From Chara braunii (Eukaryota > Plantae > Charophyceae), in assembly GCA_003427395.1 (NCBI GenBank), contig BFEA01000002.1, positions 3,161,292 to 3,225,291 on the forward strand: DNA of 64,000 nucleotides. Reading direction: 5' to 3'. The position numbers were made by a program, and so were the translations under genes. Numbering within the stretch: the stretch's first letter is position 1; every line of letters begins with the position of its first letter. The notes under the pieces are model-generated. The model was not told where the DNA came from and did not search any database. It saw nothing but the letters and a program-made list of their open reading frames with translations. Below are positions 4,705 through 60,547 of this stretch, in pieces.

Positions 4705-4840
4705 TCTGTTCAGTTCGTACACCCACAAACAGTTGAAAAAGTGCGTACACGACTTCGAATCCAGATGGAACCAGATGAACAAGATCCCTGAGTTACCTGG
4801 GGCCGGTCAGTGTCACGATGATTTCTCAAGGCTGTCAACC
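4705..4840 (+). mobile_element. tRNA-derived SINE family A, copy 1
   Basis: Head gttcagttcgtac...cttcgaatccagatgg and shared tail ctgagttacctggggccggtcag...atgatttctcaaggc. Confidence 0.7.
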
Positions 4841-9870: not shown

Positions 9871-10600
9871 CACACAAAACAAATCATGTCCAAAATCAAT
9901 GAAACAAACAAACACTGTGAAATACTCCACCAAGTCGAGCAGAATCAAATCCAGAATCAAATCGAGAATCAAATAGAGGATCAAATAAATCCGGGATCAC
10001 ATCCAGGATCAAATCCAGAAGCAGATCCTGAATGAAATCCAGAACCGAGTCCAGAATCAAGTCCACACCGATCCTCTGCAACCAGCAAAACCAATCCCAG
10101 CAGCGCACTGACTGTGCTCTCTTCATCCATTACTTTGGGCCTCGCCACACCACCGTCGGAACCCAAAAAAGAATGAATGTATCTTCCCCAGAAAGCGGTG
10201 AGATGTATCCGTTGCTATTCCATAGTAACGGGTGCATCTTGCCATTCTTTGCGGGAAGATGCACTTTCTTTTTTCGAATCGACAGTGGTGTTGTGGTGAG
10301 GCCCTTTCTCCTCCGCATCAAAGCAAATTATTGGGCAGTAGGCACACAAAGGATAGTGAATACCAGATCAATAGCCATGTTCTGACTCACCGAATGGATC
10401 TCACTGTTCTCACATCAAGATCCACCAACACTGCCACCAATAACACAGCAATAACACAGCAATAACACAGCAATAACACAGCAATAGCACAGCAATAACA
10501 AAACAATGACACAGCAATAACAAAATGAATGACAGTTTGACTTGTAGCAGCAGTAGATATGTGTGAAGAGGGCGAAACAGTAGTAGTATTAGAGGAACCA

Positions 10601-10717
10601 CCGTCTTCACCCAGATACAACACCAACGCCTTGTCATTCTCGCAGCATCTGGACTGAAAGTTGCCCCAAAAACAGCGATAATGACCTGGCAGGTGTTCCA
10701 TTCAGATGAAGATGGTA
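10601..10717. mobile_element. ~110-bp palindromic MITE, TA-CCGTCTTCACCCG family
   Basis: ccgtcttcaccc...gatgaagatggta; interior matches the copies at 54001 and 60548. Confidence 0.75.
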
Positions 10718-11075
10718 GTCCCAGCAGATACCGCATAGAGAACAACTCAAGGACAGGAAGGAATAGCAGCACCAGGTCAGGACCACTAGAACAGCAAGGA
10801 GAAAGTGTACAAACCACTTCCAGGGCAAGGGAGCAACAGCGGCGGCTGCGGTACGATCAATGATATTGCCAAATGACTGTCTAGGCTTAAGAGTAGTGGT
10901 AGGTAGATACACTGAAAGGTGAATTTGAGCAAAGAATATGGCTAACTTTTTCGAAAGGGGTTTAAGGGGGGCAAAAAAAAAAAAAAAACCAGGAGTGGCC
11001 ATGCTCAGGCAGTAACAGCGTCAATAAGAAGAGATTCCAGTAGCGACGGTGTGCAGGCACTACCAATCTATCCTT

Positions 11076-11185
11076 CCGTCTTCACCCAAATAGAACGCCC
11101 GGTCACCCAAATAGCTGTATACGGGGCAACATTCAGTCTGGATACAGCCATAATGACCGGGCACTCTATACGGGTGAAGACGGTA
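11076..11185. mobile_element. ~110-bp palindromic MITE, same family
   Basis: ccgtcttcacccaaatagaacg...cgggtgaagacggta. Confidence 0.8.
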
Positions 11186-11324
11186 GTGACTAAGTTCATT
11201 AACAAAATACCTGTACCTGGGCAGCAGTAGAATGAGTGCCAGCGGGTGCTGGTCGCAGTTGCAAGCGCTTTTCTTTGTTCTTTGTTCTTTGTTCTTTGTT
11301 CACCCTATATTTCCTTTTCTTTGA

Positions 11325-11460
11325 CAGGGCGACAGCGTTGAAAATCATTGCAGCACAGACCAGACCCCAGGGAATTCAGGAATTTGGAATTCCATTCATG
11401 TAATTTCCATCTGGGTTCGAACTGAGGTTCGTATTTCAACAGTCCGTGGCTGTGGGGCCG
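11325..11460 (-). mobile_element. SINE family A, copy 2 (degraded)
   Basis: catctgggttcgaactgaggttcgtatttcaacagtcc matches copy 3; T-rich tail on the left. Confidence 0.65.
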
Positions 11461-11897: not shown

Positions 11898-12044
11898 GAA
11901 AACGATATATTCTCATACAGTGAGCTGTTACCCTTCATGATTTTATCCTCTTCATCTCTAATAGTAGCTGGATTCGACACCATTCTTTCGATTATCCTTT
12001 TTGTCTTTTTTTTTTCTTCTTCCTCCCTTTTATTAATATACAAC

Positions 12045-12191
12045 GGCGACCGGCGTTGAGATATTGCCGTTCAGCTGAGCGGCCCCAAGGTACTTCAGAA
12101 ATTTTGGTTTCATTCGTCTAGTTCCATCATCTGGATTCGAACTCGGGTCTGTATTTCAACAGTCCATGGACGTACCAACTGAGCTAGGCTC
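12045..12191 (-). mobile_element. SINE family A, copy 3
   Basis: Reverse strand has A-box tagctcagttggta and B-box gagttcgaatcc, then the family tail and an A-rich tract. Confidence 0.8.
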
Positions 12192-12619: not shown

Positions 12620-12945
12620 GGCAGTTGGTACAGTGTCACCCCCCCTGGACTGAACTGTTAAAATATAGTTCAGTTGGTACACCCCCCCTGGACTGAACTG
12701 TTGAAATATAAACCCGAGTTCGAACTCCAATGGAAGCAGATGAGTGAAATACTACAATTCTCGATTTATGCGTGTCATCCCTGCGCAGGGGCCATGTTAA
12801 TCTCCCTTCTCTGTATCGTCCCAATTTTAACGGATGTCCCCAAGGACAGATAATTACTACCTAGGGAAAAAAAAAATAATAAAAAAAATAATAATAATCT
12901 CTGAGTTACCTAACAAGGGCCGGTCAGTTCGATGATGACGGGCCT
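12620..12945 (+). mobile_element. SINE family A, copy 4 (duplicated head, interrupted by an antisense U6 copy)
   Basis: Head tagttcagttggtac...ccgagttcgaactc; tail ctgagttacc...gggccggtcagttcgatg at 12901-12935. Confidence 0.7.
12755..12847 (-). pseudogene. U6: U6 snRNA-derived copy, near full length
   Basis: Reverse strand gtccttggggacatccgttaaaattgggacgatacagagaag(gga)gattaacatggcccctgcgcagggatgacacgcataaatcgagaattg matches plant U6 including the ACAGAGA box; small insertion and no 3' U tract. Confidence 0.9.
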
Positions 12946-16015: not shown

Positions 16016-16414
16016 CCTGCCGCTCATGGTCACGTAATAGCGACGAATAATTCATCACCTTGCACTCGAAAGTGAAACTAGAGTACACGCATTTGTCACC
16101 TTCTATTTTAAGAAAACTCACTCGGACAAGTTCTATACATCCAGAAATAGTTTCGCTCCGTACGGACGACCAATCTTAATTTCCTTTTCCTTTTTTTTAT
16201 TTTTCTTTTCTCAATTTCTTTTTCTTTTTTTTATTTCTCTTTTCTCAATTTCTTTTTCTTTTCTTCCCTTTTAGATAATAATAATAATAACGACCAATCT
16301 ACCTCTCCAAATCACATAAAATGAAGATTTAGATGGACAAAATCTGCGAGGCCCCACATCTCCGGGCGAACCCCCACGTTTAGTATTTCCCCTTCTTGGT
16401 TTTTATCTTTTTCT

Positions 16415-16575
16415 TAAGGGGCGACTGCCTTGAGATATGACCATTTTCAAACTGACTGGTCCCAGGTAATTCAGAATTACTCTACTGTGTTCATCTGGTT
16501 GCATCTGGATTCGAACTCGGGTCTGTATGTCAAACAGTTCATGGAGTCCTACCAGCTGAGAGCTAACGGGTAGGC
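16415..16575 (-). mobile_element. SINE family A, copy 5
   Basis: gggcgactgccttgagatat...cccaggtaattcag...catctggattcgaactcgggtctgtat. Confidence 0.8.
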
Positions 16576-16608
16576 CCGTTGGGTTTTCTTTTTTTCTTTT
16601 ATTTTTTT

Positions 16609-16717
16609 GTGACCCGATGGACCACGGACCCGATATTAAACTGAGGATCAGATATTAAACTGATCAGAACAGATACTACACTTGATCTATTTTTAGACAA
16701 AAGGCCGAGAAACGTAT
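16609..16717 (-). pseudogene. U2: U2 snRNA 5' fragment with A-rich tail
   Basis: Reverse strand atacgtttctcggccttttgtctaa(aaata)gatcaagtgtagtatctgttctgatcagtttaatatctgat...gtggtccatcgggtcac then A-rich; contains the branch-point pairing sequence GUAGUA. Confidence 0.9.
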
Positions 16718-16924
16718 TGGGTCCGTTGGTTCCACTTCCATTATTTTGCTAATTTGCTATTGTTATTTCGATTCCTTAGTTCTTAAAATCATGTTATGTT
16801 CTTTACTTCATTATTCCCATTACTTAATAAAGTTCACTTTCGTTCTTTTTTTCTATCGATTCCTCGATTTCTTATTTCGTACTCCAGTACTACATCGCTA
16901 TTGCTATTACTTTTATTTTTACAC

Positions 16925-17154
16925 TTCGGGCATTTCCACTTCGATATACGATCATTATCGCTGCATCTGGACTGCAAGTTGTCCCAAATGCAGCTACAAT
17001 GGCCAGCGTTCTATTCGAGTGCCGACGGTGGGACCTGACAATTTCGGTTCAGAAAACACTACACCAAATTCTGAATTACCTAGGGCCGGTCAGTTCAATG
17101 ATCAGATCTCAAGCCCTTCACCCTTTTTCAAAACAAAGAAACAAACAAACAAAC

Positions 17155-17196
<42 letters not shown>
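16925..17196 (+). mobile_element. Degraded CCGT-family MITE followed by a SINE A tail and poly(A)
   Basis: MITE interior catctggactgcaagttgtcccaaa; SINE tail ctgaattacctagggccggtcagttcaatgatc. Confidence 0.6.
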
Positions 17197-19976: not shown

Positions 19977-22900
19977 GGGCCTCTCTGCACTACTCGTGAA
20001 AAGAGCATTTACATGAGCGCCGCACCGCTGCACTTACTCGTGAACTCGGCGCCAGTTTCGTGAGTCAAGAGCTGTCAGATGTCACTCTTGCAAGCGACAA
20101 GAGTTGTCGTCGCTGCACAACTCTTGCCGCGTCACTCTTGAAAATGCACTTCACGAGCTGTCAGGTAGTCGTCAGGCGAAGGCGACTAGAGCGCTCTTGT
20201 TCGCCTGCCTGCAAACCCCGTTTTTGCAAGGGAGATCGGAAGGTTTCTTGAAAGGCCGTTTTTGCAATGCCTTTGCACATGCCTCTTAGAGGCAAGCTGA
20301 GATGTGCCTCATGGAATGTAAGGGGTCTCTGCGACACGAATTATAAACAGAAACGAAACCGTTTAAAATCCTGGATTCATGGAAAAAAATCCAGGTGGCC
20401 TGTTTACAGGAAACCAAATTAGATGAAAAGCGTTGTAGTGAAGTTGAGAACTGGTGAGCCGGCCAACAATTTTGGTCGTCGACTCAAGGCACAAAAGGTG
20501 GGACTGCAATACTCATTCACAGGGACTTAAATGCTGTGATTTTAGACTCAGCGGTTGACTTGTGGGGGCGTTGGGTGTGGGTGAAGTTTGAGGTGGGATC
20601 TAGGGAATGGTCAGTAATGTCGATCTACCGTGACGTTCCGACAGACTATACCGAAAGGTTGAAATTTTTATCTAAATTACCCGGAATTATTCCGGATTCT
20701 GACAACCTTATTATTGCCGCGGACTGGAACACTATATTGAACCCAGGTTTGGACAGCCCGAAAGTAGGCCCCATCGGACCTGATAGCAGGCTTTTACAGA
20801 GTTTCATGATTGCTAATAACCTGGTGGATGCTTATAGAGTACTGAACTCGAACGCTCAGGAATACACGTGGCTTGGGTCTAAGACAACGCCAGCTCAAAG
20901 AAGGTTGGACTTTATTTTGATGAAAGGTCATTCGTGGCAGGAATGTACTTCGGTAGAAATAGTCATGTCGGATATGTCGGATCATAGACCTGTAGTAGCA
21001 GTATTTCACATTTGTGAAGTTCCAAAAAGGGGCCCTTCCTACTACAAATTGAATGTTTCCTTATTAAAAGATCTGGGAGTAATACTATGGGCACAACGTC
21101 AGTTGGCTTTGTGGACGGAGGCCAGAGAACTATTTAGCGTAGAACAAGACTGTCTGGAAGAGGGCATTCACATCGTGCAACGGCCCTTCAATGTGTTCTC
21201 ACAAATTAAGGCGCAATCAATGAAAAATGAGGAAAAATCTATAATAAAAAGGATTAAACTTGCGGAAGATAATTTCGGGCAAGATGATGTATCAGATGTC
21301 TATTGGACAATAGTGAGAAGAAGAAGCTTGGTCAAACTGGAACAGATGCATATTCATGACCAAATGCAGTGGAAGGAATGGCTTGACCAGAGAAATATTA
21401 CTACTGGGGATAGACTTACAAAGGAAACATTCAGACGTTTAATCCTACAAAAAGCCCCACCCCCAATCAAAGAACTTTCACACCCCTTTTCAACCCAACT
21501 TTTAGTATCCAACGATTTACAGCAGATGTGCGAATATGCTAGATTATACTTCGAAGATATCTTTACTATGCATCGCCCATATGATGAGATGGACATGGAT
21601 TTAAAAATCACAAGTACTTTTGGGAATCGTTATCAAAAACTTCTACCCCACAGCGCGCGACTGGATCTAGACAAACCACTGACACTGGAAGAACCGCTAG
21701 TAGCTGCTAAAAGGATGGCGAAAGGGAAATGTCCAGGGGAGGACGGTCTACCAATTGAAGTTTATTTAGCCTTGTGGCCTCAATTGGGCCCCATGTTGCT
21801 CAGTATATTCAACCAAGTTTTAACAGGGGAAAAATTGACAAAAAACATGTCTAAGGGAATCATATCATTGTTATATAAGAAAGGCGATAAAAAAAAGATT
21901 CGTAATTGGCGACGAATTTCACTGTTAAACGCCTCGTATAAGTTGTTGGCTAAGGTCATTTCAATACGTTTAGCTAGGTACCTACCGGACCTTATTGGTA
22001 AGGAACAATGAGCCTTTGTAAAACACAGAAGTATTATGGATAACATAGCTTCAACTATTCAGGCGTTGGAAATCATCACTAAAGATAACCTTGACGTGGC
22101 AACTTTTCTATTGGATATGGAAAAGGCGTATGACCGTGTGGGTTGGGCCTTTGTGATGACTACTTTGAAGCACATGGGTTTTGGGCTCCCTTTCTGCCAA
22201 TGGGTAAAAACGATGTATTCGGGGTCTATAGCCACAGTAATGGTGAATGGTAAACAGTCAAATGAATTCATCCTCACTCGTTCCTTAAGACAAGGCTGCC
22301 CTTTAGCCCCGCTGTTATTCGTAGTTTATTTAGAAATACTGCTGGATAACATCCCCTGGAACTCAGAAATACAAGGATTGAAACTTAAACGGGACTCCAA
22401 TGGAAAGGTGGGGCTCTGACCGATGACTTAACCATTGCATGTCAAAACAAGAAAGAGCAATTAAGAACTTTAATGAGAGTATTAAACGAGTATTGCGACC
22501 TATTTGAGGCCTCTATTAATTGGAATAAGTCAACGTATTTTTTACCACCTTCCTATAATTTTGGAGTGAATTGGGGGTTGAAAGTTGTTCCCGCGGATGC
22601 TTCAGAACGTTTCTTGGGTGTCCAAGTCTCACAATCGGATAACTCAGAGTACCAAGATGCAATTTTGGTAGAGAAATACTGCAGCAGGATTCTGACTTGG
22701 AAGCATACAAGACACTTATCCTTGTTGGGGCGAGCTTTGGTTTTAACTTCAGCAGCACGTTCGATTCTTTGGTTCACGCTGGCGGTTCACTATTTGGGGG
22801 ATCAAACGTATCAGAAGAAAAGCAGCAGGACGCTTCATTTGAAAACCGGAGGCACAAGTGCATGAAGGTCATATGTCGAAGGTAGTCTTGGAGACTATAA

Positions 22901-25644
22901 CCTTCCCAAGACACCAGGGGGGGGGTTGGGATCCTTGACCCTAGACAACAGAACCAAGCTCTGCTGGCAAAATGGCCAATCAAGGCCTTAACTTCCTTAC
23001 ACAATGAACCTTGGTTGGCGCTGGGTCTGCAGATATAGGCAGGAAGACGCTCTGACTTGCTTAATGATACCGTCATATGTGAACAAGCAACTAAAGTCAA
23101 AGTTATGGGGTGATATCTTGAAAGCATGGAAAAAACTCATTCCAACGGAGAGGGAACATCCAACCTCAAGGGACGTCGTGCTGCTTGAAATTCTGTTTGA
23201 AAATCCTCACATTAAAGAAGAAGGGACTAATACTTTTCTAGCGAATGGTTTTGTGGGTCATTTTGGTAAAAGTTGGATAGAAAAGGGAGTAGTTAGGGTG
23301 AGGGACATTTGGGATGAGAATAAGCTGGATTGGATAGAGGTCGTTGAGTTGAAACAGACATTGCCAAGAGTGAGAGGCATTCAACATAAACTGCAAAAAT
23401 TGACAGATGCTATTTCAGATAGTTGGAAGCGAATTCTGCATGCTAATCGACAAAAAAGTTGAAGGCGTTCCCGAATTTTCTTGGTAGAGGCAACTTCGTT
23501 ACACTTAGGATCGCCTCCTATACTTGATGAGGGGCTATGGGTAAGGAAGTGGGATGAAGAAGGGGAGTATGACATATGGCACGTTGTAGGCCCTGCTTTG
23601 GATGGAGGCTTTGAAGGATGCAGGTGACACAAGTCTGAGGATTTTTCCTATACAAACGAAATATACCAAGGTAACAAGGAAAAATTGGATTCTATGGCAG
23701 AACTGCAGGAAGTACTGGTCACGCCGCCTATAGCCAGCAATAGGACTCCTTTGATCCCAATAAGGAGGAAACTGTTAGTGCAAGGACAACCACTCACTTC
23801 TCTTGGTATAAATCCAGAAACAGTGGGTTGGTTTAGTGCGGAGAAGCGCAGAATGGTAGCCATGGTGGAATATAAGTCAAAAGTGGGCACCGACTTTCTT
23901 AGACAAAGGGTTAAGAAATACCCGTTTGCCACAATAGTCAAAAGATGAGCGGAACAGGGTCTTATAGGCACGTCATATGAAGAAATGCAAGACTTGCGGG
24001 TGGAACTTAAGAGTCTCCCATCTCAGAAGTTAGCCAGTATGTTGTAGCTGCAAGCAATTCTAGCCACAACATCAGCAGTGTGGTTAGCAGCGAAAGGCAT
24101 GGAGATAGCTACCACTTGTCCGAAGTGCAGATGGGGGTGGGAGACTACACGACACCTATGACTGACTTGTCCAGCATCGAGACGCGTTTGGGACTGGTGG
24201 ATCTAGTATTGGATAAAATTCACAAAGAACAGTTTTGATTGGTCAGACAAATAGATTCTGACAGGTTGTAGAAAAGGTAGGAACGAATGAAAATATGTGG
24301 CTCAGGTGACCAGAGCGATTATCATGAAGGTAATCTGGGATGACAGGAACAATCCATTGTTTCGGCGACAATGTATATCGGATGTTCAAATCAAGAAGCG
24401 AATTACTGCAAACCTATGAAGGAATATGATTTGTGACTTGAACAGACGTACATCCCGTGGAATTGGTCCAAATCAAAGGAAATGGTTCAATGAGACCTGG
24501 GGGAGGAATTCAGAGTTGCTACTAGTAGTGGTGGATGACAGGGGAAAGCTTTCCTTTTGCTCTTGGTTATTGACCATGATAGGTCATGGGGAACACATTA
24601 GTACCCCACCTTAAGCAGAATGGTTCTCCTTTCCTGTGTTGTCAGTTTTGTGAGGTTGACACTCCTCCACGTCTCATTTCACGTCTACCTGTTGGGTCCT
24701 GTATTATAGTGTTGGTGACATTAAGGGGGGCAGGTAGTTGTGATAGGGAGGTTAGGTGCAGACCTGTGTGTATCTAAACTCTCATCCTTTTTCATGAGTT
24801 TAAATGCTATTTTTTGGAGAAGTCCTTAGTTGAGGGACAAGCGTGGAGACGCTGGACCCAGTTTCCAGTATTGAGCCGATTCTGGATAATGGCCCCAGCA
24901 TTCCGGGTAGAATTGTGAGGTCCCCGGCCTCAACTTGTTCTTTGATAATAAAGCTTCAACACTTTCTTCCCCCCCCCCCCCAAAAAAAAAGGCCGCCAGA
25001 TTTCAAGAGCGAGCTGGGTCTGGACGGGCAACACACGCGCTGGCTGTCGTTTAGTGCTTCAAGAGCACTCGTGAAGGGCTCATATTCACACTACCGTGCG
25101 TGGTCCCACCGTGGTGGAACCGTGATTTCTTAAATGGCATGTACTATTCCTTGTTTTCGGTTCAGGTGGGGGAAGGGGCGGCGGACAGTGGATGCGGAGT
25201 GTGCCCAATGGCGGAGGGGCGGAAAGCGGCTGAGGATCGGGCGTGTACAACTCCCGGTTTTCAAACCAAGGGGGGGGGGGCTGACAGTGGCTGCGGAGTG
25301 TGGCCAGTGGCGGGGCAGAAAGCGGCTGAGTATCGGGCCTGTACAACTCGCAGTTTTCGGACCAGGGGAGGGGGGAGTGGGGTGCGGGGAAGCACAGTCC
25401 TCCACAGTGCGTGCTGTTTCGTGGTGGTGGGGAATCCCGGTACTACCGAGTCCCAGAACTGCCTAGAGTTCTACCGTAGCTGCACTACTCGTGAAGTCGG
25501 TGTCAGCCTCTCAAGAGCAACTCATGAGGAAAACTGCCTAGAGTAAGTGCAGCGAGGACCGAACTCTAGGCCGTTTCGGGACTCTGATAACTCTAGGCGC
25601 ACTCGTGATTTTTTTCATGAGTCATGAGTAGTGCAGCGAGACCC
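19977..25644. mobile_element. Non-autonomous PIF/Harbinger-type DNA transposon carrying a nested LINE
   Basis: 23-bp TIRs (gggcctctctgcactactcgtga and reverse complement gggtctcgctgcactactcatga, 20/23), CAA on both sides, CTCGTGA/CAAGAG subterminal motifs in both arms. Confidence 0.8.
20305..24990 (+). mobile_element. L1/Tx1-clade LINE ORF2 (APE endonuclease and reverse transcriptase), 5'-truncated and pseudogenised
   Basis: WNVRGL, CLQETK, ADWN, RRLDF, SDHRPV (APE); KCPGEDG, NWRRISLLNASYK, LDMEKAYDRV, LRQGCPLAPLLF (RT); C-terminal CPKC; stops and frameshifts; A tail at 24982-24990. Confidence 0.95.
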
Positions 25645-25710
25645 CAAGTGTAGTATCTGTTTTGATCCGTGGTCCATCGGACCACGTTTAAAAAAAAAAA
25701 AAAAAAAAAA
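25645..25710 (+). pseudogene. U2: U2 fragment, right part of the split copy, with poly(A)
   Basis: caagtgtagtatctgttttgatc-cgtggtccatcggaccac followed by about 21 A. Confidence 0.8.
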
Positions 25711-28700
25711 GGACCAGAGGGCTAAGTCCATGCTCACGGGAGCGCGCCGGCCGGCGCCCGGAACGCCCAAGTTGCGCTTGCAGTTTAACGCTGCTATGGT
25801 CCCTCGCGTAGCGCACAGCCATGATGCGCTAGCGAGAGTGTAGCCTCCTCGGTCGGCAATAACCGAGCAACCAACCCGCGTGGGAAGGGAGGTAGGGGCC
25901 ATATAGACCGGCCACATAGCCAGTCAGTGTTATCATCATGAGAAGTTGATATACTCGTACACGTATTGTAAGAGAAGGGTGTCTGCGAGCGCCACACACA
26001 GAGGCGCCTGCCTTTGACGTGAACATAGCGAGTAGAAGGAAGGAGAGGGACAAAAATAGCAACATTAGAGGCTCAACACGAGTCAGCTGAGCGAGGTATC
26101 AAGGATGGACCAGGGAAACCGTCAGGCTCGTCCGGAGGCAAACGAGGTGCCGCTATCTGCAGAAGACCAGATCACGGTATACAACTGCTAATAGCGAAAT
26201 GTTATGAGGATGGGGTTTTCCCAGAGAATTTACGCCATAGAGAGTTTGTCATGGAGAACGGTATTCACATTTTTTCAAGGTTAATCCACAAATCAACACA
26301 CTAACCACGGTGTGTCTCAAGGAGAGGACAGTGACGGTGATTTTCCAGGGAGAAGCGAGAGACCTACCGATGAGGACCAAAGAAGACCTGATTCGGGCAT
26401 ACGAGAATGGCTGGCTAAGGAAGAAGACGTTTGCAAGAGGGTTCAAGAGAGGGAGGGTCCATGAAGAAGGGCCCAATGTGATGTCATACGTTGCTAAATC
26501 GAGGCAGGTGGCTCAATGGCTAGTGGCGAAGGCAGACGATGTGGTGGTGATTAGAGGAGTGGAGTATAAGATGCTATTTGAAGCATGGATGGCAAGGACA
26601 GAGTTAGAGGAGCAAAGAAGACGAGATGGTGAAACTAAGTTTTAGGTCATAGCTTTGAGAGTACCACTGCGTGCTATGTTCCATGTGGGCGATTTGATTA
26701 CCCAAGTGTTGGGCCTTATCATTACATGTCACCCCCCAGAGCCAAATGCCACACGCCCGAAGCTTATGAATTTGAAATTCGAACTTGCACGGGAAGCGGA
26801 AGAAAAGTTTGAGGCGATCCTCCCAATGAAGCTCAACCATGGTGAGTTATACAACGTACAACTTGTCAATAAGAACACGCCATGGTGCACTCGGTGCAAA
26901 TGGTGGTTCCATACGGAATCGGACGGTTGTCCAAAAACCGATGTAGTCAGAGGTCGCAACCATGGCCCTCAACAAGGCGAAGTGGTATTCGACAAAGGGA
27001 TCAGATCGGTGGCCAGAGATCAACACATTGTTCCCTCAAGTGGAGGAGAGTTCAGCAAGGCAGCGACAAGAAGACAAGGGGGGTTCGACCACCTAGGAAG
27101 CAGACCAGGAGATCAGGCGGCTGCTCCGATGGGACATCTCCCAAGTATACAGCAACTCGGGCAACATTGACTGAGAGAGCTATATCAGCCGGCGTCGGGG
27201 GAGCACTCGAGGCAAGCAGATATCCGATTAGGATCATGGACACTGATCCCAGGTGCCAGTGATCCGTACCTAGCGGCCATGAATGCTCTTTGTCCGTGGC
27301 CATAACCACAAAACGAGGCAGCCAGATACGGCCACTCGACGAATCATGCAATCAACGGTCTACAAGGAGGAAGTCAATACCTCTTGCCAGGGCACCACCC
27401 TGGCAAGGGGCAGGGCCAATCGGCATTTTCGAGACCAGGACAGGAGATGATGGGCCCTTTACCAGGGGTGGTAGAGAGAGTGGTGGGAATTGACGGATAC
27501 GGAGATGGAAGAAACCAGAACACCATTAGGGCCAGTCGTCAATTCCCCAACAAGAGCACAGTGAAACTTCCCAGAGGGAAGGAGGGGATGTAGGTGGCTC
27601 ATGAAATCCGATTCCGAATGGGGTAATTACTCGTGATGTGGGGGAGTAGCAGCCAGAGGAGAAGCTGCTATTGCCTCTAATCTGTACTCTCCTCGGATAG
27701 GAACCTTACATTCTCGGATTGGTAAATAGGCTAGGAGAGACGGTCTTTCCATCTACGTCCTTATGCGGGGTTCCCACTCCATACCTGATTGAGTCTAGAG
27801 TAAGACAAACTTATGCTAATTACTTTTGCTTTAGAATTTTCCCAGAGGATCCTCTCACGGTGGACACACCGGCAGGTAAATGCCTGAAGTTCTTTATTCC
27901 ATTGATAGATGCAAGAATTTCGATGCAACACTGGGCGGGCTTGCCATCGATAGGGTTAACGCGTATGCCCCTCCACCTACTACTAGGAGTTCCGAGAAAC
28001 GAACTTGATAGTGTGTTAGTAAAACCAGGGATCTCCACTTCCTTTCTCAGAACTCTAGCCTGTCGCAGGAGAGGGAAGGTACCGTCTAGTCAGATCACGT
28101 CCGGATCCAAGTGGAAAACGAGACGCCAGGCACTGGGGATGGGGAAAATTAAAGTAGGTACATGGAATGTGAAAGGACTGCGCGATACCGAGGGAAAGCA
28201 AAAGGGAAAGCGGTTGAAGAGGTGGATTCAAGAGAGAAGAGTAAACATCATGTTCGTGCGAGAGACGAAGTTGTCAGAAGCTAAATTAGCACAACTCACA
28301 GATTGGTGTGATGACCCTCAACTCTGGTCCCCGACATGGGGCACTAGAGGAGGGATGACCATCTTAGTCCGAAAAATCTTAAGCACAGAGCTCATTGATT
28401 TTGAGTCGGACTTATGGGGTAGATGGGTGTAGCTAAAACTCATGATTGATGATGTTGAGACAGTAGTAGCTACAGTTTATGCACATAACAAACTGAAAGA
28501 TAAACTTTTATTTATTAAATTTCTCCCTTACTGCTTACCGAGGACAAAAAATATGATAATAGGGGGAGATTGGAACTTGGTGTGCACTCCTGGCCTGGAT
28601 TCAGAAGTCGAAGAGGGCCTAAAAAAAGATAGAGAAGCTTTTCTTCTATGAACGGAAGCGTGGGGCCTGACGAACATCTTCAGGGAGCTATACCCCTTAA

Positions 28701-29770
28701 CCAAAGATTTCACGTGGTTCTTAAGCTCCAGGGTTGTGGCAGGAGCAAACCGAAGGCTAGATTTCTTTCTGACCTTCGGGTATTTTACTCAGTCCGCCGT
28801 TGTTGTCCAATCATACCGTGGGGGCATGTCAGGCCATAAACCAGTAACTATGGAGGCCAGAATAGCGAGACAGGCGAAGCCTAAGGGCCCTGGATACTTC
28901 CGACTAAACTCTGCAAATCTGGAGGACGAGGGCTGGTGGAACTGGATCAACCAACAGTGGATTTCCTGGAAACAGGCGAGAGTGGTTTTTGACTCATATG
29001 AACAATGGTGGGATGAAGGAATCCGCATCATCTCGTCGAAGTTTGAAGTGTTCTTATCGATCGCAGCTTACATGAGGAACACACAGGAAAGGAGGTTATA
29101 AGAGTGGATGAGGCGGAGAAAAAAACGAGGGGACACCAAATTTCGGAACTCACATGGGCAGAGGAGAGGGCAACCTGAATCAACGAATGGGAGTAGTACC
29201 AAGTGGAAAAAACAGTCCAGATGGGAGGCAATCCTACAAGAGAAAGGTGTAATTACTAGATACAGAATGACGAAGGAGTGTTTCCGCAGACTGCTGCCAA
29301 GCTGCAAGAGGGTCCAAATGCATGAACTCCAACATCCACACCTGATGGGGGTGTCGATAGCACACACAAACAAACAAGGATCTATGTGAATACGCAGCGG
29401 ACTACTTCAGGGATATCTTGACGACCCGTAAGACCTTTTGGAACAAGGAAACATACCTTATAAAATAAAGTAGCTTTTGGGACACGATCATTGTCAGGGT
29501 TACAGAATGGGGAAGGAGAGAGATGGACAGACCGATAACAATAGAAGAACTCAGAGAAATCATCAAAACCATAGCGAAGGGTAAAGTGCCAGGCGATGAT
29601 GGCTTACCAGTGGAGTTCTTCCTGACCTGTTGGGAGGTGCTGGAACAAGACGTGGTACAACCGTATAACGCTATCTTGACAGGGGGGCAACTAGGGGAGT
29701 CGATGACCAGATGAGTAATTACCTTAATGTATACGAAAGGAGATCGGTCAGAGGTGAGAAATTGGAGACG
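25711..29770 (+). mobile_element. Second L1/Tx1-clade LINE: 5' UTR, decayed ORF1, ORF2 truncated at the start of RT
   Basis: ORF1 zinc knuckle CTRCKWWFHTESDGC; ORF2 from ~28139 with GTWNVKGL, GGDWN, RRLDFF, KVPGDDGLP, ending at VRNWR where a satellite begins. Confidence 0.9.
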
Positions 29771-30840
29771 AGCCCGGGGGAGGACAACGGACGACAACAC
29801 GCACAGGGGGAGGACGACGCAGAAGAACACGCAGGAGGACGCACACAGGCACAACATCCTGAGTACGGATCAGGACCAGAACGGGGGGTGCGTCCAGGTG
29901 CACACGCGCGCAGCACCCGCGAGCATAGATCAAGATCGGGACGGGGGGGGCGCGTCCAGGTGCACACGCGCGCAGTATTAAGATTGGAACAGGTGGCGCG
30001 GACTAGGGTCGGATCGGGATAGCGCACACAGGCGCACAACCGGGGTCATGCGCGAGCACTCGCGCAGCCCCTGCACACGGGCGCACAACCGGAATCACAC
30101 GCACTCGCGCATCCCCTGCGCACAGACGCACGGTCGGAAAGCGTGCGCACACTCGAGCAACCCCTGCGTACAGGCGCACAGTCGGAGTTGTGCGCGAGCA
30201 CTCGCGCAGCCCCTGCGCACGGGCGCACAGTCGGAATCGCGCCCACTCGCGCATCCCCTGCGCAGAGACGCACGGTCGAAAAGCGCGCGCGCACTCACGC
30301 AACCCCTGCGCACAGTCGCAGTCGTGCGAGAGCACTCTTGCAACCCCTGCGCACGGGCACACAGTCGGAATCACTCGCACTCACGCATCCCCTGCGCACA
30401 GACGCACGATCGGAAAGCGCGCGCGCACTCGCGCAACCCCTGCACACAGGCGCACAGTCAGAGTCGTGCGCGAGCACTTGCACAACCCCTGCGCACGGGC
30501 GCACAGTCGGAATCGCGCGCGAGCACGCACGCAGTCCCTATGCTCAGGCACATGGTCGGGATCGCACACACACGCGCGCAGTCCCTATGCTCAGGCACAC
30601 GGTCGGGATTGCACACACACGCGCGCAGTCCCTATGCTCAGGCACACCCGCGCAGTTCCTGCACACACGCACGCAGCTCCCGCTCACACACGCGCGGCAC
30701 CTGTCCACACGTGCGCGACCCCTGCGCACAGGCGCGCGGTCGGGATAGCATGCGTGCACTCGCGCAGCCCTTGCGCACAGGCGCAAGGTCGGGATAGGGC
30801 GCACTCACGCGCACAACCCTTGTGCACAGGCGCACGGTGG
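29771..30840. repeat. GC-rich GCGCAC-based degenerate satellite
   Basis: Recurrent cccctgcgcac...gcgcacagtcgga units. Confidence 0.9.
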
Positions 30841-30849
30841 GGCGGGGCC

Positions 30850-32130
30850 CGAACGCTGGGTGAAGCGGGCCCTTTGAGTATGATCGAAATACCGGGCTGG
30901 GCGGACAGATCGTTGGAGGGCGGTTTTAGACACCGGGTGAAGCGGGCCCTTTGAGTGTGAGCGAAACTCCGGACTGGACGGACGGATCGTTGGAGAGTGG
31001 TTTGGACATCGGGTGAGGCGAGAGCGATCGAAAAATCGGACGGACGAACCTTTAGGGGGCGGTATAAACACCGGGTGAAGCGGGCGTTTCGGGTATGATC
31101 AGGACACTGGACGGACGGATCACCAGGGCACAGTCAAGACATCAGTGGAGCAGGCCTTTTAGGGCGCACACCGGCGAAAAGGGGTTTTGGGGTGCGGCTA
31201 GGGCACGCAGGGATACCCCGTTGGGGCGCAGTCGAGACGCCAGCGGAACGGACCTATTACGATAAAAGGCCCTTTTTGGGGCACAGTCAGGACACGGCGA
31301 AGCGGGCCTTTCGGAGGCACAGTTTGGACGTCGGTGAAAAGGGCCTTTTCGGGGCACAATCAGGACACTGCGAAACGGGCCTTTCGGAGGCANNNNNNNN
31401 NNNNNNNNNNNNNNNNNNNNNNNNNNNNNNNNNNNNNNNNNNNNNNNNNNNNNNNNNNNNNNNNNNNNNNNNNNNNNNNNNNNNNNNNNNNNNNNNNNNN
31501 NNNNNNNNNNNNNNNNNNNNNNNNNNNNNNNNNNNNNNNNNNNNNNNNNNNNNNNNNNNNNNNNNNNACAACGGTAAAAAGGGCCTTCTTGGGGCACAGT
31601 CAGGACACCACGAAGCGGGCCTTTCGGAGGCACAGTTTGGACGTCGGTGAAAAGGGCCTTTTTGGGGCACAATCGGGACACTGCGAAGCGGGCCTTTTGG
31701 AGGCACAGTTTGGACATCGGTAAAAAGGGCCTTTTTGAGGCACAGTCAGGACACTGCGAAGCGGGCCTTTCGGAGGCACAGTTTGGACAACGGTAAAAAG
31801 GGCCTTTTTGGGGCACAACCAGGACACCGCGAAGCAGGCCTTTCGGAGGCACAGTTTGGACGTTGATGAAAAGGGCCTTTTTGGGGCATAGTCAAGGCAC
31901 TGCGAAGCGGGCCTTTCGGAGGCACAGTTTGGACATCGGTAAAAAGGGCCTTTTGGAGCACCGTCGGGACACTGCGAGCCGGGCCTTTCGAAAGGGGACA
32001 TTCCGAACCGGGCCTTTCGAAAGGGTACATTCCGAACCGGGCCTTTCGAAAGGGGACATTCCGAACCCGGCTTTTCGAACGGGTACGTTCCGAACAGGGC
32101 CCTCCGAAAGGATACACGCTGAGACGGGTC
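30850..32130. repeat. ~72-73-bp satellite (dimer of ~36-bp units), spans an N gap
   Basis: ggcacagtcaggacactgcgaagcgggcctttcggaggcacagtttggac...aaaagggccttttt repeated. Confidence 0.92.
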
Positions 32131-42705: not shown

Positions 42706-42785
42706 GTCCTTCGGGACATCTGTTAAAATTGGAACGATACGTAAAAGATTAGCGTGGCCCTGCGCAGGGGTGACGTGCGAAGATT
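42706..42785 (+). pseudogene. U6: U6 snRNA-derived copy with mutated ACAGAGA box
   Basis: gtccttcgggacatctgttaaaattggaacgatacgtaaaagattagcgtggccctgcgcaggggtgac. Confidence 0.88.
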
Positions 42786-44989
42786 AAGGAGGGGCAAGGG
42801 GTATTTGAGCTCCTTACCTGTCGTCTGCGGGTTGCATCCGCCGTCCAACCGCCCCGCGGGTAGCCGGACCACTATCCGCTGCCGGGCCGCGAGTAGTCGG
42901 TCGTGGAAAGGAAGAAACTTGTGAGCCAAGTCCGAATCTGGGCGGAAAGTCGCACCGGGGGGGGGGGGGGACGGTCGGCGAGTAGCGGGGAGCCAGGCGG
43001 AGGGGCAGCGGGCACTGCGTAGAGGTACAGTCGGCAGCGGAGGCGACAGCGCAGTGGGGTCGAGCGCTTGGGCAGTGGCGAACAGGCGGTCAAGGGAGTA
43101 AGAAGGGAAAGGCGGTAAGGAGAGACAACAACCACTGTAGCGCCAGTATCAAGCCGAGGTAAGTAAGGGAAGAGGGAGAGAGTCAGGGCGTACCTTTGTA
43201 CTCGGTCCGTTCGAAGGAAGGCGGAGCCGGTGAAGAGGAGGAGACGAACGAAGTAGGGAGAGAAAGTAAAGTGAACCTGGGCGACGAATCACGCCAGGTG
43301 CATGCACAAAGAAGGGGGAGATGGCGGGGAGGAAATGGTGGGATCCGCCCGTTTCTTGACGAAATCGGAAGGGGAAGGAGCCTTTTCGGGGGTTTTTTAG
43401 TAAGGCGAGCACGGATATGAGGTTAGTTTGGTTGATTAGACAGTAGGATAAGAGGTTAGTAGGAAGAAGCCTGCGAGGAGCCCATGGTGGGAAAAGAGCG
43501 GGGGAGAATAAGGAAATGTTATCTCCCTCGTTTCTGACTTGATTCATATGGGGGAGGGCACGATTTAGACATTTTTTGACAGGGCGAGTTCGGGTATGGT
43601 GTTAGTTTTGGCGTTAGATTAGTGGAGAGGAGGTTAGTAACGAAATGGGGTGCGTCGAGCTATGGCCGACGTGAGAGAAAACGGAAGAAAACACATCCCG
43701 CTCGTTACTTAATGGAATCGAGCGGGGGAGGACTCAGAATGGGGGTTTTTGGCTATAGCGACCCCATTTATGCAATCAGAATTAGTAGTGGGTTAGTAAA
43801 TAAGAAGTTAATAGGAGAATAGTGTGCGCGGTGATGTCGGGAGTGGGAGAGAAGGAGAGGTTGTCAGTCAGTCGAGGAACTTGGGTGAAGAGGGGATTCG
43901 GGAGGGAAGACTTGAATTCTGAGTGAGTAGATTTAAGCTGCGAAGTGGGCCGGGCTGCGTGGCTGCAGGCTATGTGAGAGAGGGGAAGGGACAAAATCTG
44001 AACGAATCTTTTCGCGTTTTAGCGAAAGATTCATTTTGATAAAGGTGGTCAGTTCCTAGCATGCTGAATGTGCGACTAGGCGGCATACGTCTGGCGGGGA
44101 ATTTGATCGGATGCCCGCCGTACTCGGGGGAGAGCAGCTTGAGGGGAGCCGTACGAGTTGGGGACTTACCAATTGGCCGGTGCGTGGTTCCGATTACCGA
44201 AAGAAGTAGCCTTGCTCCGTATTTCCCCGGAGGTGGATGAGCGGCAATGCATCGCCCCTCGTGTTGGCGGAAGATCCATTCCGAGGTGCTGCCCGCTCCG
44301 GTTGTAGTGATCCTCCTGTGCCTTAGTCACCACTGGCTTTCAGACGAGCGTGGCCGTGGAAACGCTGCGCACGCAGAGAAAACCAGAAGAAGAGGGGAAG
44401 TGGTTGCTATGGGATTGAAGACCGCCAGCTAACCTGTGTGCAAAGCCGCGAGGGAGCTAGTCGTGTTGTTGAAGAGTCTGCCCGCTGGTCGGGCGTCACG
44501 GCTGTAGAGCCCAGATCTATGTGCCTGCTGCTTTCCTACTAAGCTACTGCTACATGTGCACCCAGGCGTCTTTGGTTCTGGCCAGCTGTTAAAGTATTGT
44601 GTTGAGTGTTGCGGTCTGACGTCACGAGCTGGTACACCGAAGAAGGTGGCTGCTGCAGGCAGTTCCGGGCTTGTTGCTGTGTGTTCCGCTGCCTATCTCA
44701 GCAACACTTTCAGCGACAGCCAATATTGAGCTTACTGTGTACTGGGCTGTTGGGCTGATCTGAGTACGGTCGTTTGGGGACCGTACGACTGCAGGTCCAC
44801 TTTNNNNNNNNNNNNNNNNNNNNNNNNNNNNNNNNNNNNNNNNNNNNNNNNNNNNNNNNNNNNNNNNNNNNNNNNNNNNNNNNNNNNNNNNNNNNNNNAA
44901 ACGAAGGTGTAGCGTGAAAGGAAGGGGGATGAGTGGAACTACAATGGGGTTGTTGCCGCAACCTGGAGGAGTGGTTGCAAAGGAGATTA

Positions 44990-50118: not shown

Positions 50119-50179
50119 CAGACTGTTTCGTCGGACTTTCACCGACTCATCAGGAGGTTGAACCTGGACAGACAGTCTG
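50119..50179 (-). ncRNA. Type III hammerhead ribozyme motif, stem I slightly damaged
   Basis: Reverse strand cagactgtctgtc-caggttcaacctc-CTGATGA-gtcgg-tgaaagt-ccgac-GAAA-cagtctg. Confidence 0.75.
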
Positions 50180-50692: not shown

Positions 50693-50767
50693 CCAGGAAA
50701 GGAGGTAATGAGCGATTCCCGTGTTTTTTTTTTTTTTTTTTTTTTTTGTTCCCTTTTTTTTTCCTGA

Positions 50768-51043
50768 AAGGGCGACGGCCTTGAGATATCATAGTTGAGC
50801 TGACCGGCCCCAGGCAATTCGTAAATACTTGGTTTTATTCATCAAGTTCCATCATTTGGGTTCGAGCACTGGTCTGTATGAGCATCGCCACACCACTCTC
50901 GAAATGCGCAAAATGAGAATGAACTTGCCGCTAGAACATGGCCAGATGCACCCGCCACATTTTTGTCGTTTTCACATTTCGAGAGTGGTATGGCGAGGCA
51001 CTATATTTTAACGTTTGATGGGTGTACCCACTGAACTAGGCTC
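50768..51043 (-). mobile_element. SINE family A copy interrupted by a MITE
   Basis: Family tail and head flank the insertion. Confidence 0.75.
50879..51001. mobile_element. ~123-bp MITE with TA duplication inside the SINE
   Basis: TIR gcatcgccacaccactctcgaaatg / catttcgagagtggtatggcgaggc. Confidence 0.8.
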
Positions 51044-51264
51044 ATGCTTTTTCTTTTTCCCTTTTTTTTTTTAGTTGCAACTTGCAACTGTATTGGACGA
51101 CTTGGTCTTTTTATTATTATGATTTTTTTAAACGATTTCGGTGATTTGTGGCAGCAGCAGCATCAGCAGCAGCTCGGGATTTTTTTTTTTTTTTTAACGT
51201 TCTCGGTGATTTGTGGCAGCAGCAGCATCAGCAGCAGCTCTGCTGAGTTCGTTGAGTGCTGCCG

Positions 51265-52884
51265 ATGGCGTCAACGGCTAAGTGTGGAGCGCCGCAGGCC
51301 AAGATCTCGGCGGCGGCGTATGTCCACGTGTTGGACGGAAATGCAGACAGTGTGGAATTCTGTCCTATTGAAAGTTACGAGCACGTGCTGGCAGCTGGCA
51401 CGTACACTCTAATTACAGAAACACATAAAGAAGGAGAAGATGGTGATGAATCTGATGATGATGGTGGTGATGGTGGTGATGCCGGCAAGTCAAGGCGAGA
51501 GGGCAATCTGTATCTGTATGGTGTGAGCGAGAAGAAGAAGCATCTAGACGACGGCTATGGCCATGGGAGAGAAGAAGAGGAAGATGGTGGTCAATCAGCG
51601 GACATAAACACTACATCTCACAAGATTTTGGTGAAGAAGCAATATGTTCAATCGACCTCTGGAATATTCGATCTGAAATGGGCGCCGACTAAAATCGCCG
51701 GGCGGCCGTGCTTGGCCCAAGCGAGCGCCGATGGCTCTGTCTCGTTTTACCGACTAATTAGTGATGACGTGGATAGCTTCAGACTCTCTGAAACCGCCAA
51801 AGTCATCTGCTCCTCTTCTGGTGCCATGTGTCTGTCGCTTGATTGGAATCATCTCCGTGGATATGGGGTTGATAGGTCAGACGTGTGCGGCGATGGCGGC
51901 GGCGGAAGCGGCGCGGAGGGGGAGGAGGAGGAGGAGGAGGAGGAGGAGGAGGAGGAGCTGGGATCGGGAGCGGGATCCCGCCGACACCACCGCCTGCCTA
52001 TCCCACGGAATGATCCTACTGCTGCTGCTGTCTGTGATCGGGATCGGGATGACCTGGATATTGCCGTTAGCCTATCCAACGGATCGATCTCGATCGTCCA
52101 CGTGGGTCCGTCTGATGCCCGCGTTGATCTGACCTGGTCTGCCCATCTGCTTGAGGTCTGGACTGTGGCCTTCGACACGTGGCGGCCTTGGACGCTGTAC
52201 TCGGGGGCCGACGATTGCGCCTTCAAAGGATGGGATCTCAGGTGCCGCACCGGTCCCGACCGTCCGATCTTTAAGGATGTGAAATCGCACATGATGGGCG
52301 TGTGCTCCATCCAGAGCAGCCCATTTCGCGAGCACGTGATTTGCACGGGGAGTTATGACGAAAAGGTGAGGTTGTGGGACCTGAGAATGGTCGGGAGACC
52401 GACGCTGGTTCACTCGGTCCCGACAGGAGGCGGCGTGTGGAGGGTGAAATGGCACCCTTGGGACCCCGATCGCATCCTCTGCGCGCTGATGCACAATGGA
52501 TTTGCCATTCTCGATGTGAAAGGGAAGGGGGAGGGGGAGACGGAGGGGGAGGGGGAGGGGGAACTGAAGAACTGCCACGTGGAAATTGCCGAGACCTACA
52601 TGGCACATGAGTCTCTCGGCTATGGTGCAGATTGGAGCCGCAGTCGATGTGTAAATCTTGCTGGCATTGGCTCGAGAGCTTCTTCCAAGAAGAAGGGTGC
52701 TGGTGATGTCCACGTCAGCAAGGAGATGATGCGAAGCGATAGTGACCTGCGTAATGATGACCTGGAGATTGAAGAGGATGGAGAGAGATCATCATCGACG
52801 TCTTCGTTGATTGCCACGTGTTCGTTCTACGATCGACAATTGCACGTATGGAAGTCGGCTGCTGGTGAAGGCAGTGGCAATTGA
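51265..52884 (+). CDS. DPH7: Diphthine methyl ester hydrolase DPH7/WDR85-like WD40 protein (diphthamide biosynthesis), single exon
   Basis: Motifs LDGNADSVEFCP, LAAGTY, GIFDLKW, CLSLDWN, YSGADDC, TGSYDE, GGGVWRVKWHP, MHNGF, HESLGYGADW, ATCSFYDR; ATG at 51265 preferred over GTG at 51256. Confidence 0.92.
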   Translation: MASTAKCGAPQAKISAAAYVHVLDGNADSVEFCPIESYEHVLAAGTYTLITETHKEGEDGDESDDDGGDGGDAGKSRREGNLYLYGVSEKKKHLDDGYGHGREEEEDGGQSADINTTSHKILVKKQYVQSTSGIFDLKWAPTKIAGRPCLAQASADGSVSFYRLISDDVDSFRLSETAKVICSSSGAMCLSLDWNHLRGYGVDRSDVCGDGGGGSGAEGEEEEEEEEEEEELGSGAGSRRHHRLPIPRNDPTAAAVCDRDRDDLDIAVSLSNGSISIVHVGPSDARVDLTWSAHLLEVWTVAFDTWRPWTLYSGADDCAFKGWDLRCRTGPDRPIFKDVKSHMMGVCSIQSSPFREHVICTGSYDEKVRLWDLRMVGRPTLVHSVPTGGGVWRVKWHPWDPDRILCALMHNGFAILDVKGKGEGETEGEGEGELKNCHVEIAETYMAHESLGYGADWSRSRCVNLAGIGSRASSKKKGAGDVHVSKEMMRSDSDLRNDDLEIEEDGERSSSTSSLIATCSFYDRQLHVWKSAAGEGSGN

Positions 52885-53276: not shown

Positions 53277-53340
53277 GTCCCTTCGGGACATCAGTTAAAA
53301 TTGGAACGATACACAAAAGATTAGCATGGTCCAAATTTGT
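53277..53340 (+). pseudogene. U6: U6 snRNA-derived copy with internal deletion, followed by an A-rich tract
   Basis: gtcccttcgggacatcagttaaaattggaacgatacacaaaagattagcatgg joined directly to the U6 3' end tccaaattt. Confidence 0.88.
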
Positions 53341-53343
53341 TGG

Positions 53344-53825
53344 AAAAAAAAGAAAAAAAAAGAAAAAAAAAGAAAAAAAAAGAAGGAAATTTCACAAGGG
53401 GCGCTGGGCCCGTTCCCAGCACGTGCTGCTCCACACGAATAGGTTGGAGCCAAAAAAAAATGGAAAAAAGTTCAAAAAGGTTCAAAAAACGAGAAAAAAA
53501 GGGGGAAACAACGGGAAAAAAACGGAATAAAAGATTCGAAAGTGAAAAAAACGAAAAAAAAAAAAAACCAAAAAAACCTAAAAACAAGAAACGAAACAAA
53601 AAATCAAAAAAACGAAAAAAAGGAAAAGAAAGGAAAACCAAAACATGTAAAAGGGGAAAAAAACGAAAAAAAGGAAGGTAAGGGAAAACGAAAACATGTA
53701 AAAGGGAAAAAAACGAAAAAAAAGTGCAAAAAAAAACCGGAAAGAAACGAAAAAAACGAAAAAAACGAAACGAAATAAAAAAACTAAAAAAAGGAAAAAA
53801 AGGAAAAGAAGGGAAAACGAAAAGA
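53344..53825. repeat. A-rich low-complexity tract
   Basis: Seen directly. Confidence 0.9.
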
Positions 53826-55867: not shown

Positions 55868-55998
55868 ATATTTTTCGGTTTTTTGGCTAAAAATAGATCA
55901 TTGACAAGTGTAGTATCTGTTCTGAACTACTGATCAGTTTTAATATCTGATCCGCTGTACATGGGACCCAATGATATTGGGGGAAAAAAAAGAAAAAA
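55868..55998 (+). pseudogene. U2: U2 snRNA 5' fragment with small insertions and A-rich tail
   Basis: ttttggctaa(aaata)gat(cattga)caagtgtagtatctgttctga...tcagttttaatatctgat. Confidence 0.85.
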
Positions 55999-56235
55999 GG
56001 AAACGTACATCTGAAACTTGCAGGCTTACACATTTGCAGAAACCAGCTGGGGAAATGATGACACCTTGGTACCTCCCATCCCATGGATGGTTCCTATTAA
56101 TTTTTGAATCAGTTTTTCAATTTACGGCCTGTATGTTCTTTCAAACTCCCCCATTGCATACCTGCCGTGTGGCAAATGGACCGTGCCTTCAAATCCTGAT
56201 GGATACGATAGTAATCTTTGGGGTCACACCTTTAA

Positions 56236-60504: not shown

Positions 60505-60547
60505 AAGGTTCTGAATCAGATCCCGTATATAAAGAACAGAAGGTTCC

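What the first reader, a model, noticed from the sequence alone, without database searches (positions are those of the whole stretch)
16609..16717. U2-derived SINE-like family: copies share a derived insertion and a common truncation region
Seen: this copy and the one at 55868 both read ctaa-aaata-gatca where canonical U2 has ctaagatca. All three U2 copies stop around stem IIb and run into A-rich tails. Inference: they were amplified from a mutated master rather than each from the U2 gene. Established: snRNA-derived SINEs (SINEU) are known from crocodilians; I know of none from green algae.
Basis: partly seen in the sequence, partly recalled or inferred. Interest (0 to 1): 0.7.

Follow-up and report, generated by a model that had tools for sequence, protein, structure and literature searches.

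The report
U2 RNA retrocopies sharing one insertion
Two scattered, A-tailed DNA copies of the splicing RNA U2 in a plant-lineage genome carry the same five extra bases, likely because both were reverse-transcribed from one mutated U2 gene; whether they belong to a true jumping-element family is untested.

Summary
The observation mostly holds. The copy at 16717→16609 (minus strand) is a 3'-truncated U2 snRNA copy (Rfam 60.8 bits). It has an A-rich tail and a 12-bp target-site duplication, and it landed inside the head of a tRNA-type SINE. It and the copy at 55868 carry the same 5-nt insertion in the U2/U6 helix I bulge. Their flanks are unrelated, so segmental duplication is not supported and a shared source is likely. 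The 'common truncation' is looser than claimed: the two insertion-bearing copies end 9 U2 bases apart, and the third copy lacks the insertion site. Both insertion-bearing copies start at about U2 base 1 with no shared leader. That fits a promoter-driven variant U2 gene whose trimmed, A-tailed RNAs were likely pasted in by a LINE (0.45) better than a self-propagating SINEU-like element (0.25). Three U6 copies at the same density show that this window is rich in snRNA copies without any shared master. No genome or read evidence was obtained, so copy number and the expressed U2 sequence stay open, including the bold case that working U2 itself has the insertion.

The parts
16609..16717 (-). U2a: U2 snRNA-derived copy from base 1 to the end of stem IIb; no Sm site or 3' stem-loops
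   Evidence: Rfam RF00004 60.8 bits; sequence
16689..16693 (-). 5-nt insertion AAAAT in the bulge between U2/U6 helix Ib and helix Ia segments, shared with U2b
   Evidence: the helix assignment is established knowledge, recalled
16626..16644 (-). private 19-nt tandem duplication of part of stem IIa (2 of 19 letters differ from the first copy)
   Evidence: read from the sequence
16584..16608 (-). A-rich tail of U2a (22 of 25 A)
16718..16729 (-). left target-site duplication, CCAACGGACCCA
   Evidence: position-restricted control 2 of 5000
16571..16582 (-). right target-site duplication, CCAACGGGCCTA (10 of 12 identical); also the first bases of the host SINE
16395..16582 (-). host tRNA-headed SINE-like repeat (A-box-like and B-box-like motifs, A-rich end) into whose head U2a inserted; 7 related pieces aligned in the window
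   Evidence: box identity recalled
55868..55978 (+). U2b: decayed U2 copy from about base 1 to about base 93. Shared insertion at 55890-55894; private 6-nt (55901-55906), 8-nt (55926-55933) and 1-nt insertions
55979..56003 (+). GGGGG plus A-rich tail of U2b (17 of 20 A); no convincing target-site duplication (control 246 of 5000)
25645..25710 (+). U2c: 5'-truncated (starts at model position 28), stem IIa deleted, intact stem IIb, then GTTT and 21 A; insertion status unknown; directly upstream of a decayed LINE

Best explanation
The 16.6k and 55.9k copies are A-tailed, Sm-site-less U2 copies with unrelated flanks and one shared 5-nt insertion, likely reverse-transcribed separately by an L1-type LINE from the RNA of one promoter-driven variant U2 gene. 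SHOWN: U2 identity, the insertion in 2 of 2 informative copies, tails on 3 of 3, a 12-bp target-site duplication on the 16.6k copy, unrelated flanks, differing 3' ends, and decayed APE/RT LINEs in the window. INFERRED: a U2 gene duplicate kept its upstream promoter and gained the insertion; its transcripts began at U2 base 1, were cut short before the Sm site at variable points and A-tailed; a LINE enzyme pasted them in; the copies lost the promoter, cannot copy themselves, and have since gathered private substitutions and small insertions.
For: Target-site duplication 10/12, control 2 of 5000. U2a-U2b flank scores 18 and 20 against a random median of 19 and 95th percentile of 24 (273 pairs). 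U2a starts at model position 1 directly after its duplication; U2b starts at about position 1 with different upstream DNA. U1/U2 promoters lie outside the RNA, and some SINEU-2 copies carry 5' extensions from flanking DNA (PMC4494074). U2b holds 9 more U2 bases than U2a. By eye, substitutions at conserved positions in the first ~70 nt are private to one copy, and the shared stem IIa change is compensatory, so the source was otherwise intact U2. 3'-truncated, A-tailed snRNA copies with duplications are described and ascribed to A-tailed surveillance intermediates (PMC4476161 section 7). Sm-less snRNAs are tailed, with U, in human cells (PMC7293007 passages). Three differently built U6 copies lie at the same density, one with tail and 12-bp duplication (control 0 of 5000). 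L1-type APE and RT matches, both below Pfam cut-offs.
Against: The variant gene itself was not seen. A minor variant should rarely supply 2 of 2 copies unless it is heavily over-represented among tailed RNAs. In human, 0 of 58 characterised U2 copies are A-tailed, so 3 of 3 tailed copies here need a lineage-specific reason or a tailed master. U2a could have lost its last 14 nt by a later deletion, which would erase the differing-ends argument; such internal deletions occur in U2c and U6c. U2b and U2c have no convincing target-site duplication (controls 246 and 797 of 5000). Kojima used a shared internal change to argue that SINEU-3 is a family and not a sum of retrocopies; the same logic applies here.
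Confidence: 0.45

Rival explanations
1. A SINEU-3-like family: a truncated, tailed U2 retrocopy with the insertion became a master, is transcribed from neighbouring DNA and is spread by a LINE.
For: Insertion in 2 of 2 informative copies; tails on 3 of 3, against 0 of 58 for human U2 copies. 3 U2 copies in 63.3 kb = 47 per Mb (Poisson 95% 10-138), against 1,708 hits at 90% identity or more in the human genome (thresholds differ). All ends fall within 9 nt, before the Sm site. U2a sits in another repeat's head, reminiscent of SINEU target preference.
Against: No shared non-U2 3' body; ends differ between the two marked copies; no shared 5' extension; no B-box-like hit inside any U2 copy. U6 copies reach the same density with no shared structure. 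One window may not represent the genome.
Confidence: 0.25
2. The organism's working U2 snRNA carries, or once carried, the enlarged bulge, and these are ordinary retrocopies of it.
For: Explains 2 of 2 without over-representation, the start at base 1, variable ends and the otherwise intact source sequence. In yeast, U2 changes in helix Ib are tolerated better than U6 changes (PMC6294511 passages).
Against: The Rfam U2 model treats the five bases as an insertion in a highly conserved stretch. The U2/U6 core fits tightly in a protein pocket. The window's U6 copies show no matching shared change: the 4-nt insertion is in 1 of 3.
Confidence: 0.15
3. Local DNA-level transfer (gene conversion or templated repair between two existing copies 39 kb apart), or two independent insertions at a hotspot.
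For: Small insertions are common in these copies: 3 private ones of 6 nt or more in U2a and U2b, and a 4-nt one in U6a. The site is at a hairpin and the insert is A-rich.
Against: Parallel origin estimated at 8e-5 to 9e-3 under assumed rates. The copies differ at several positions close to the insertion, and their flanks are unrelated.
Confidence: 0.12

Closest known systems
Polyadenylated snRNA processed pseudogenes (Group II / Poly(A) class; Doucet et al. 2015, PMC4476161; sections 5, 7, 8 and passages read)
   Same: snRNA sequence, A-rich tail, target-site duplication, lost promoter; 3'-truncated tailed examples exist (2 U1, 1 U5, 2 U6).
   Different: Human U2 copies are almost all tailless (57 of 58 3'-truncated, 0 tailed); here 3 of 3 are tailed, and two share a derived insertion, which points to a variant source.
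SINEU-3 of crocodilians (Kojima 2015, PMC4494074; parts 1-4 of 5 of the text read, no supplements)
   Same: Short, U2-derived, A-tailed, no internal promoter; a structural change shared among copies; LINE-dependent.
   Different: SINEU-3 has about 1,600 copies, a shared ~50-bp deletion, a ~40-nt non-U2 3' end and 90% targeting of one Mariner family. Here two marked copies are known, with no shared 3' body and different ends.
Expressed variant snRNA genes (Mabin et al. 2021, PMC8457000; passages read)
   Same: Variant and truncated U2 genes, some with changes in U6-pairing regions, are transcribed in human cells; such a gene is the proposed source.
   Different: No such gene was located here, and the passages seen do not describe variants as masters of retrocopy families.
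Master-gene SINEs such as rodent BC1/ID (recalled, not from a call)
   Same: One small-RNA gene that needs upstream sequence seeds many dead copies bearing its diagnostic changes.
   Different: BC1 is tRNA-derived and made by Pol III; U2 is made by Pol II from a wholly external promoter.

Membership tests
SINEU (Kojima 2015) | 5' head derived from U1 or U2 snRNA | tested here: met
   Rfam U2 matches
SINEU (Kojima 2015) | 3' poly(A) tail | tested here: met
   3 of 3 copies
SINEU (Kojima 2015) | Derived structure shared across copies | tested here: inconclusive
   Insertion in 2 of 2 informative copies; too few
SINEU (Kojima 2015) | Shared 3' region or common 3' end beyond the snRNA part | tested here: not met
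   U2a has no 3' body; U2b runs 9 nt further and adds GGGGG; U2c adds GTTT
SINEU (Kojima 2015) | Hundreds to thousands of dispersed copies | not testable with these tools
   No genome held; no read evidence on the copies
SINEU (Kojima 2015) | Target preference shared with a partner LINE | tested here: inconclusive
   U2a in a tRNA-SINE head, U2c next to a LINE 5' end, U2b neither
Classical SINE (Pol III) | Internal A/B-box promoter | tested here: not met
   0 of 17 B-box-like hits in the window fall inside a U2 copy (pattern recalled)
Polyadenylated snRNA processed pseudogene (Doucet 2015) | snRNA sequence followed by an A-rich tract | tested here: met
Polyadenylated snRNA processed pseudogene (Doucet 2015) | Target-site duplication | tested here: met
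   U2a 10/12, control 2 of 5000; not found for U2b or U2c
Polyadenylated snRNA processed pseudogene (Doucet 2015) | L1 endonuclease-like cleavage site | tested here: inconclusive
   U2a duplication is preceded by only two A's and has decayed
Working U2 snRNA gene | Sm site and 3' stem-loops present | tested here: not met
   All three copies end at or before about model position 93 of 192
Working U2 snRNA gene | Upstream snRNA promoter elements | tested here: not met
   No TATA-like or USE-like motif in 100 nt upstream of U2a or U2b (land-plant motifs recalled, so a weak test)

The most novel reading that the evidence does not exclude
This streptophyte's working U2 snRNA has a five-base-longer bulge inside the spliceosome's catalytic U2/U6 helix I, and the genome is strewn with thousands of A-tailed retrocopies that record it. 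Failing that, the copies mark the first U2-derived SINEU-like family in the plant lineage (about 0.25, interest about 0.6).
Probability: 0.13. Interest if true: 0.78.

Novelty: new variant of a known kind. Interest (0 to 1): 0.42.

Why it matters
On the best reading it shows how an snRNA with an external promoter can seed a marked set of retrocopies through a variant master gene, a plausible first step toward SINEU-type elements. How such elements are transcribed is left open in PMC4494074. It also suggests unusually heavy LINE capture of tailed snRNA fragments in this lineage (six snRNA copies in 63 kb). If the copies are a large family, snRNA-derived SINEs would extend to the plant lineage; four searches listed no such report. 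If working U2 has the insertion, a conserved part of the splicing catalytic core tolerates a large change. All three outcomes are separable by one genome-wide search and one small-RNA dataset.

Tried and rejected
No whole genome is held, so no genome-wide count was made. The run search listed 24 runs of organism A and no RNA holder on record; this is no evidence on expression. No reads or contigs were laid on any U2 copy, so the expressed sequence and allele state are unknown.

A metagenome scan with the window's LINE protein, meant to fetch related loci, confirmed 1 of 174 candidates, a 1.1-kb contig matching over 41 residues; it was not used. Earlier-findings look-ups gave nothing for this genome and one irrelevant hit.

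Rejected: (1) segmental duplication, because the flanks are unrelated. (2) U2a plus the tRNA-SINE as one composite element, because the SINE's first 12 bases are duplicated on both sides of U2a. A possible 9-bp duplication around the SINE was seen by eye but failed my positional test (1764 of 5000). (3) U2c as the flank of a Keno/Utopia-type insertion, because it starts at position 28 with no LINE 3' end attached; the usual site near base 38 is recalled and also appears in a scan note. (4) A Tc1/mariner excision footprint for the insertion, because one base does not fit (by eye).

In U2b the insertion pairs perfectly over 7 bp with the altered 5' arm, which may reflect later hairpin-templated change; not tested. 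PMC5798949 (truncated U2 forms) is not held; only its title was seen. The one paper matching the bulge search had no passage on bulge insertions. Supplements of PMC4494074 were not read and hold the SINEU alignments.

Full report
Setting. The window is repeat-rich eukaryotic DNA with 653 N. Its one clear gene is an intronless WD40 ORF at 51256-52884. The best named matches are DPH7 proteins of liverworts and other land plants at about 40% identity (173 hits among 7,995 candidates scored, 120 listed). That indicates a deep streptophyte. A charophyte such as Chara is my guess from recalled traits and is not shown by any search. Two decayed LINEs with endonuclease and RT remnants lie at about 20250-24990 and 25711-29800 (both Pfam matches are below the curated cut-offs). 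No whole genome is held.

The observation. Rfam finds U2 at 16717→16578 with 60.8 bits and shows five extra bases, AAAAT, between the segments that pair with U6 in helix Ib and helix Ia (helix names recalled). The U2-derived part ends at 16609, followed by a 25-nt tail with 22 A. The copy at 55868 has the same five bases at the same site, plus private insertions of 6, 8 and 1 nt; it scores only 18.7 bits in a local scan. The third copy, 25645-25685, begins at model position 28, so it cannot show the insertion; it lacks stem IIa and ends in GTTT and 21 A. The insertion is thus in 2 of 2 informative copies. With assumed rates, parallel origin has a chance of 8e-5 to 9e-3. All three copies are tailed, where a random point has about a 0.003 chance (42 tracts).

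The ends. U2a and U2c stop at the end of stem IIb. U2b goes on for nine bases that match Rfam consensus 85-93 at 8 of 9, in exact register; the background is 19 of about 128,000 positions. All three stop before the Sm site.

How U2a got there. A 12-bp duplication (10 of 12 identical) abuts its 5' end and its tail. In a position-restricted control, 2 of 5000 random flanks scored as well (30 of 1000 without the restriction). The duplicated bases are the start of a tRNA-headed repeat, seven pieces of which I aligned, so U2a inserted into that repeat's head as its own event. U2b and U2c have no convincing duplication (246 and 797 of 5000). The 400-nt flanks of the three U2 copies score 18-21 against each other, like random pairs (median 19, 95th percentile 24, n = 273). 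Segmental duplication is therefore not supported.

The source. By eye, apart from the insertion the two copies share no change at conserved positions in the first ~70 nt, and their shared stem IIa change is compensatory. The source was an otherwise intact U2 of this lineage. U2a begins at base 1 right after its duplication, and U2b at about base 1 (55868, or 55860 on another alignment) with unrelated upstream DNA. U2's promoter is external, and Kojima found no promoter in SINEU and saw 5' extensions on some SINEU-2 copies (PMC4494074). A promoterless master would be expected to leave a shared leader; none is seen in 2 of 2. I therefore favour a promoter-bearing variant U2 gene as master (inferred, 0.45). 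Truncated, tailed snRNA retrocopies are described and ascribed to surveillance tailing (PMC4476161 section 7), and variant and truncated U2 genes are expressed in human cells (PMC8457000 passages).

Against this reading. The variant gene was not seen. A minor variant should seldom give 2 of 2. Human U2 copies are tailed in 0 of 58 cases. U2a's shorter end could be a later deletion, as U2c and U6c show internal deletions. Kojima's argument that a shared internal change makes SINEU-3 a family applies here too, and the density is high: 47 U2 copies per Mb in this window (95% 10-138). Hence 0.25 for a SINEU-3-like family. Density alone does not decide, because three U6 copies lie in the same window, each built differently, one with a tail and a 12-bp duplication (0 of 5000). 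Two of the three U6 copies share a G-to-A change in the ACAGAGA box, which is unexplained and may be parallel decay. The working U2 itself could carry the insertion (0.15), since no expressed U2 was seen; conservation and the tight protein pocket (PMC6294511 passages) argue against it. Local conversion or a hotspot gets 0.12.

Membership. U2a meets the tests for a polyadenylated snRNA processed pseudogene. It works like SINEU-3 in origin and LINE dependence, but it is not filed as SINEU: the shared 3' region was tested and not met, and copy number could not be tested. It is neither a classical SINE (0 of 17 B-box-like hits inside the U2 copies) nor a working U2 gene.

Prior description. Searches: SINEU + snRNA + SINE (45 papers, 20 listed), Chara braunii + snRNA (14 papers, 13 listed), Chara braunii + SINE + retrotranspos (8 papers, 7 listed), snRNA-derived + SINE + alga (0 papers). 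No listed title or abstract start concerned U2-derived repeats in algae; passages of PMC11347168 did not either. Most subscription papers are outside the library. The scan's own unchecked notes hold SINEU-like candidates in sharks and none for this genome.

Verdict. A real feature: LINE-type U2 retrocopies with a shared derived insertion, likely from one variant source. A new variant of a known kind; interest 0.42. Copy number and the expressed U2 sequence remain open and decide between the readings.

Noticed in passing
window 12743-12847 (-), 42706-42806 (+), 53277-53384 (+): Three U6 snRNA copies. One has a 4-nt insertion next to the ACAGAGA box and abuts a truncated SINE; one diverges after ~75 nt; one has an internal deletion, an A-rich tail and a 12-bp duplication. 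Two share a G-to-A change in the ACAGAGA box.
   Followed up: partly
window 16395-16582, ~12000-12190, ~50720-50880, ~4710-4840, ~17067-17172, ~12660-12757, ~11365-11450: A tRNA-headed, A-tailed SINE-like family with at least seven diverged pieces in 64 kb; not matched to a named family.
   Followed up: partly
window 50120-50174 (-), 59004-59059 (-), partial at 60446-60504: Type III hammerhead ribozyme motifs, 43-44 bits, below the Rfam gathering score of 48.5, inside short repeats. Possibly Penelope-like or retrozyme elements; papers seen as listings only.
   Followed up: no
window 51256-52884 (+): Intronless DPH7 (diphthine methylhydrolase) orthologue with long acidic and glycine-rich inserts; possibly a retrogene.
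   Followed up: partly
window ~20250-24990 and ~25711-29800 (+): Two decayed L1/Tx1-type LINEs, about 30-38% identical in protein; the second begins right after the A-tail of U2c and has a zinc-knuckle-like ORF1.
   Followed up: partly
window 10596-10720, 11073-11187, 16952-17041, 53999-54111, 60547-60656: A ~110-bp palindromic MITE-like repeat family with five pieces.
   Followed up: no
window 30024-30841 and 31264-31990: Two tandem-repeat arrays; the second has a ~73-bp unit.
   Followed up: no
window 55869-55895 (+): In U2b the shared insertion pairs over 7 bp with the altered 5' arm, extending stem I; perhaps hairpin-templated change after insertion.
   Followed up: partly
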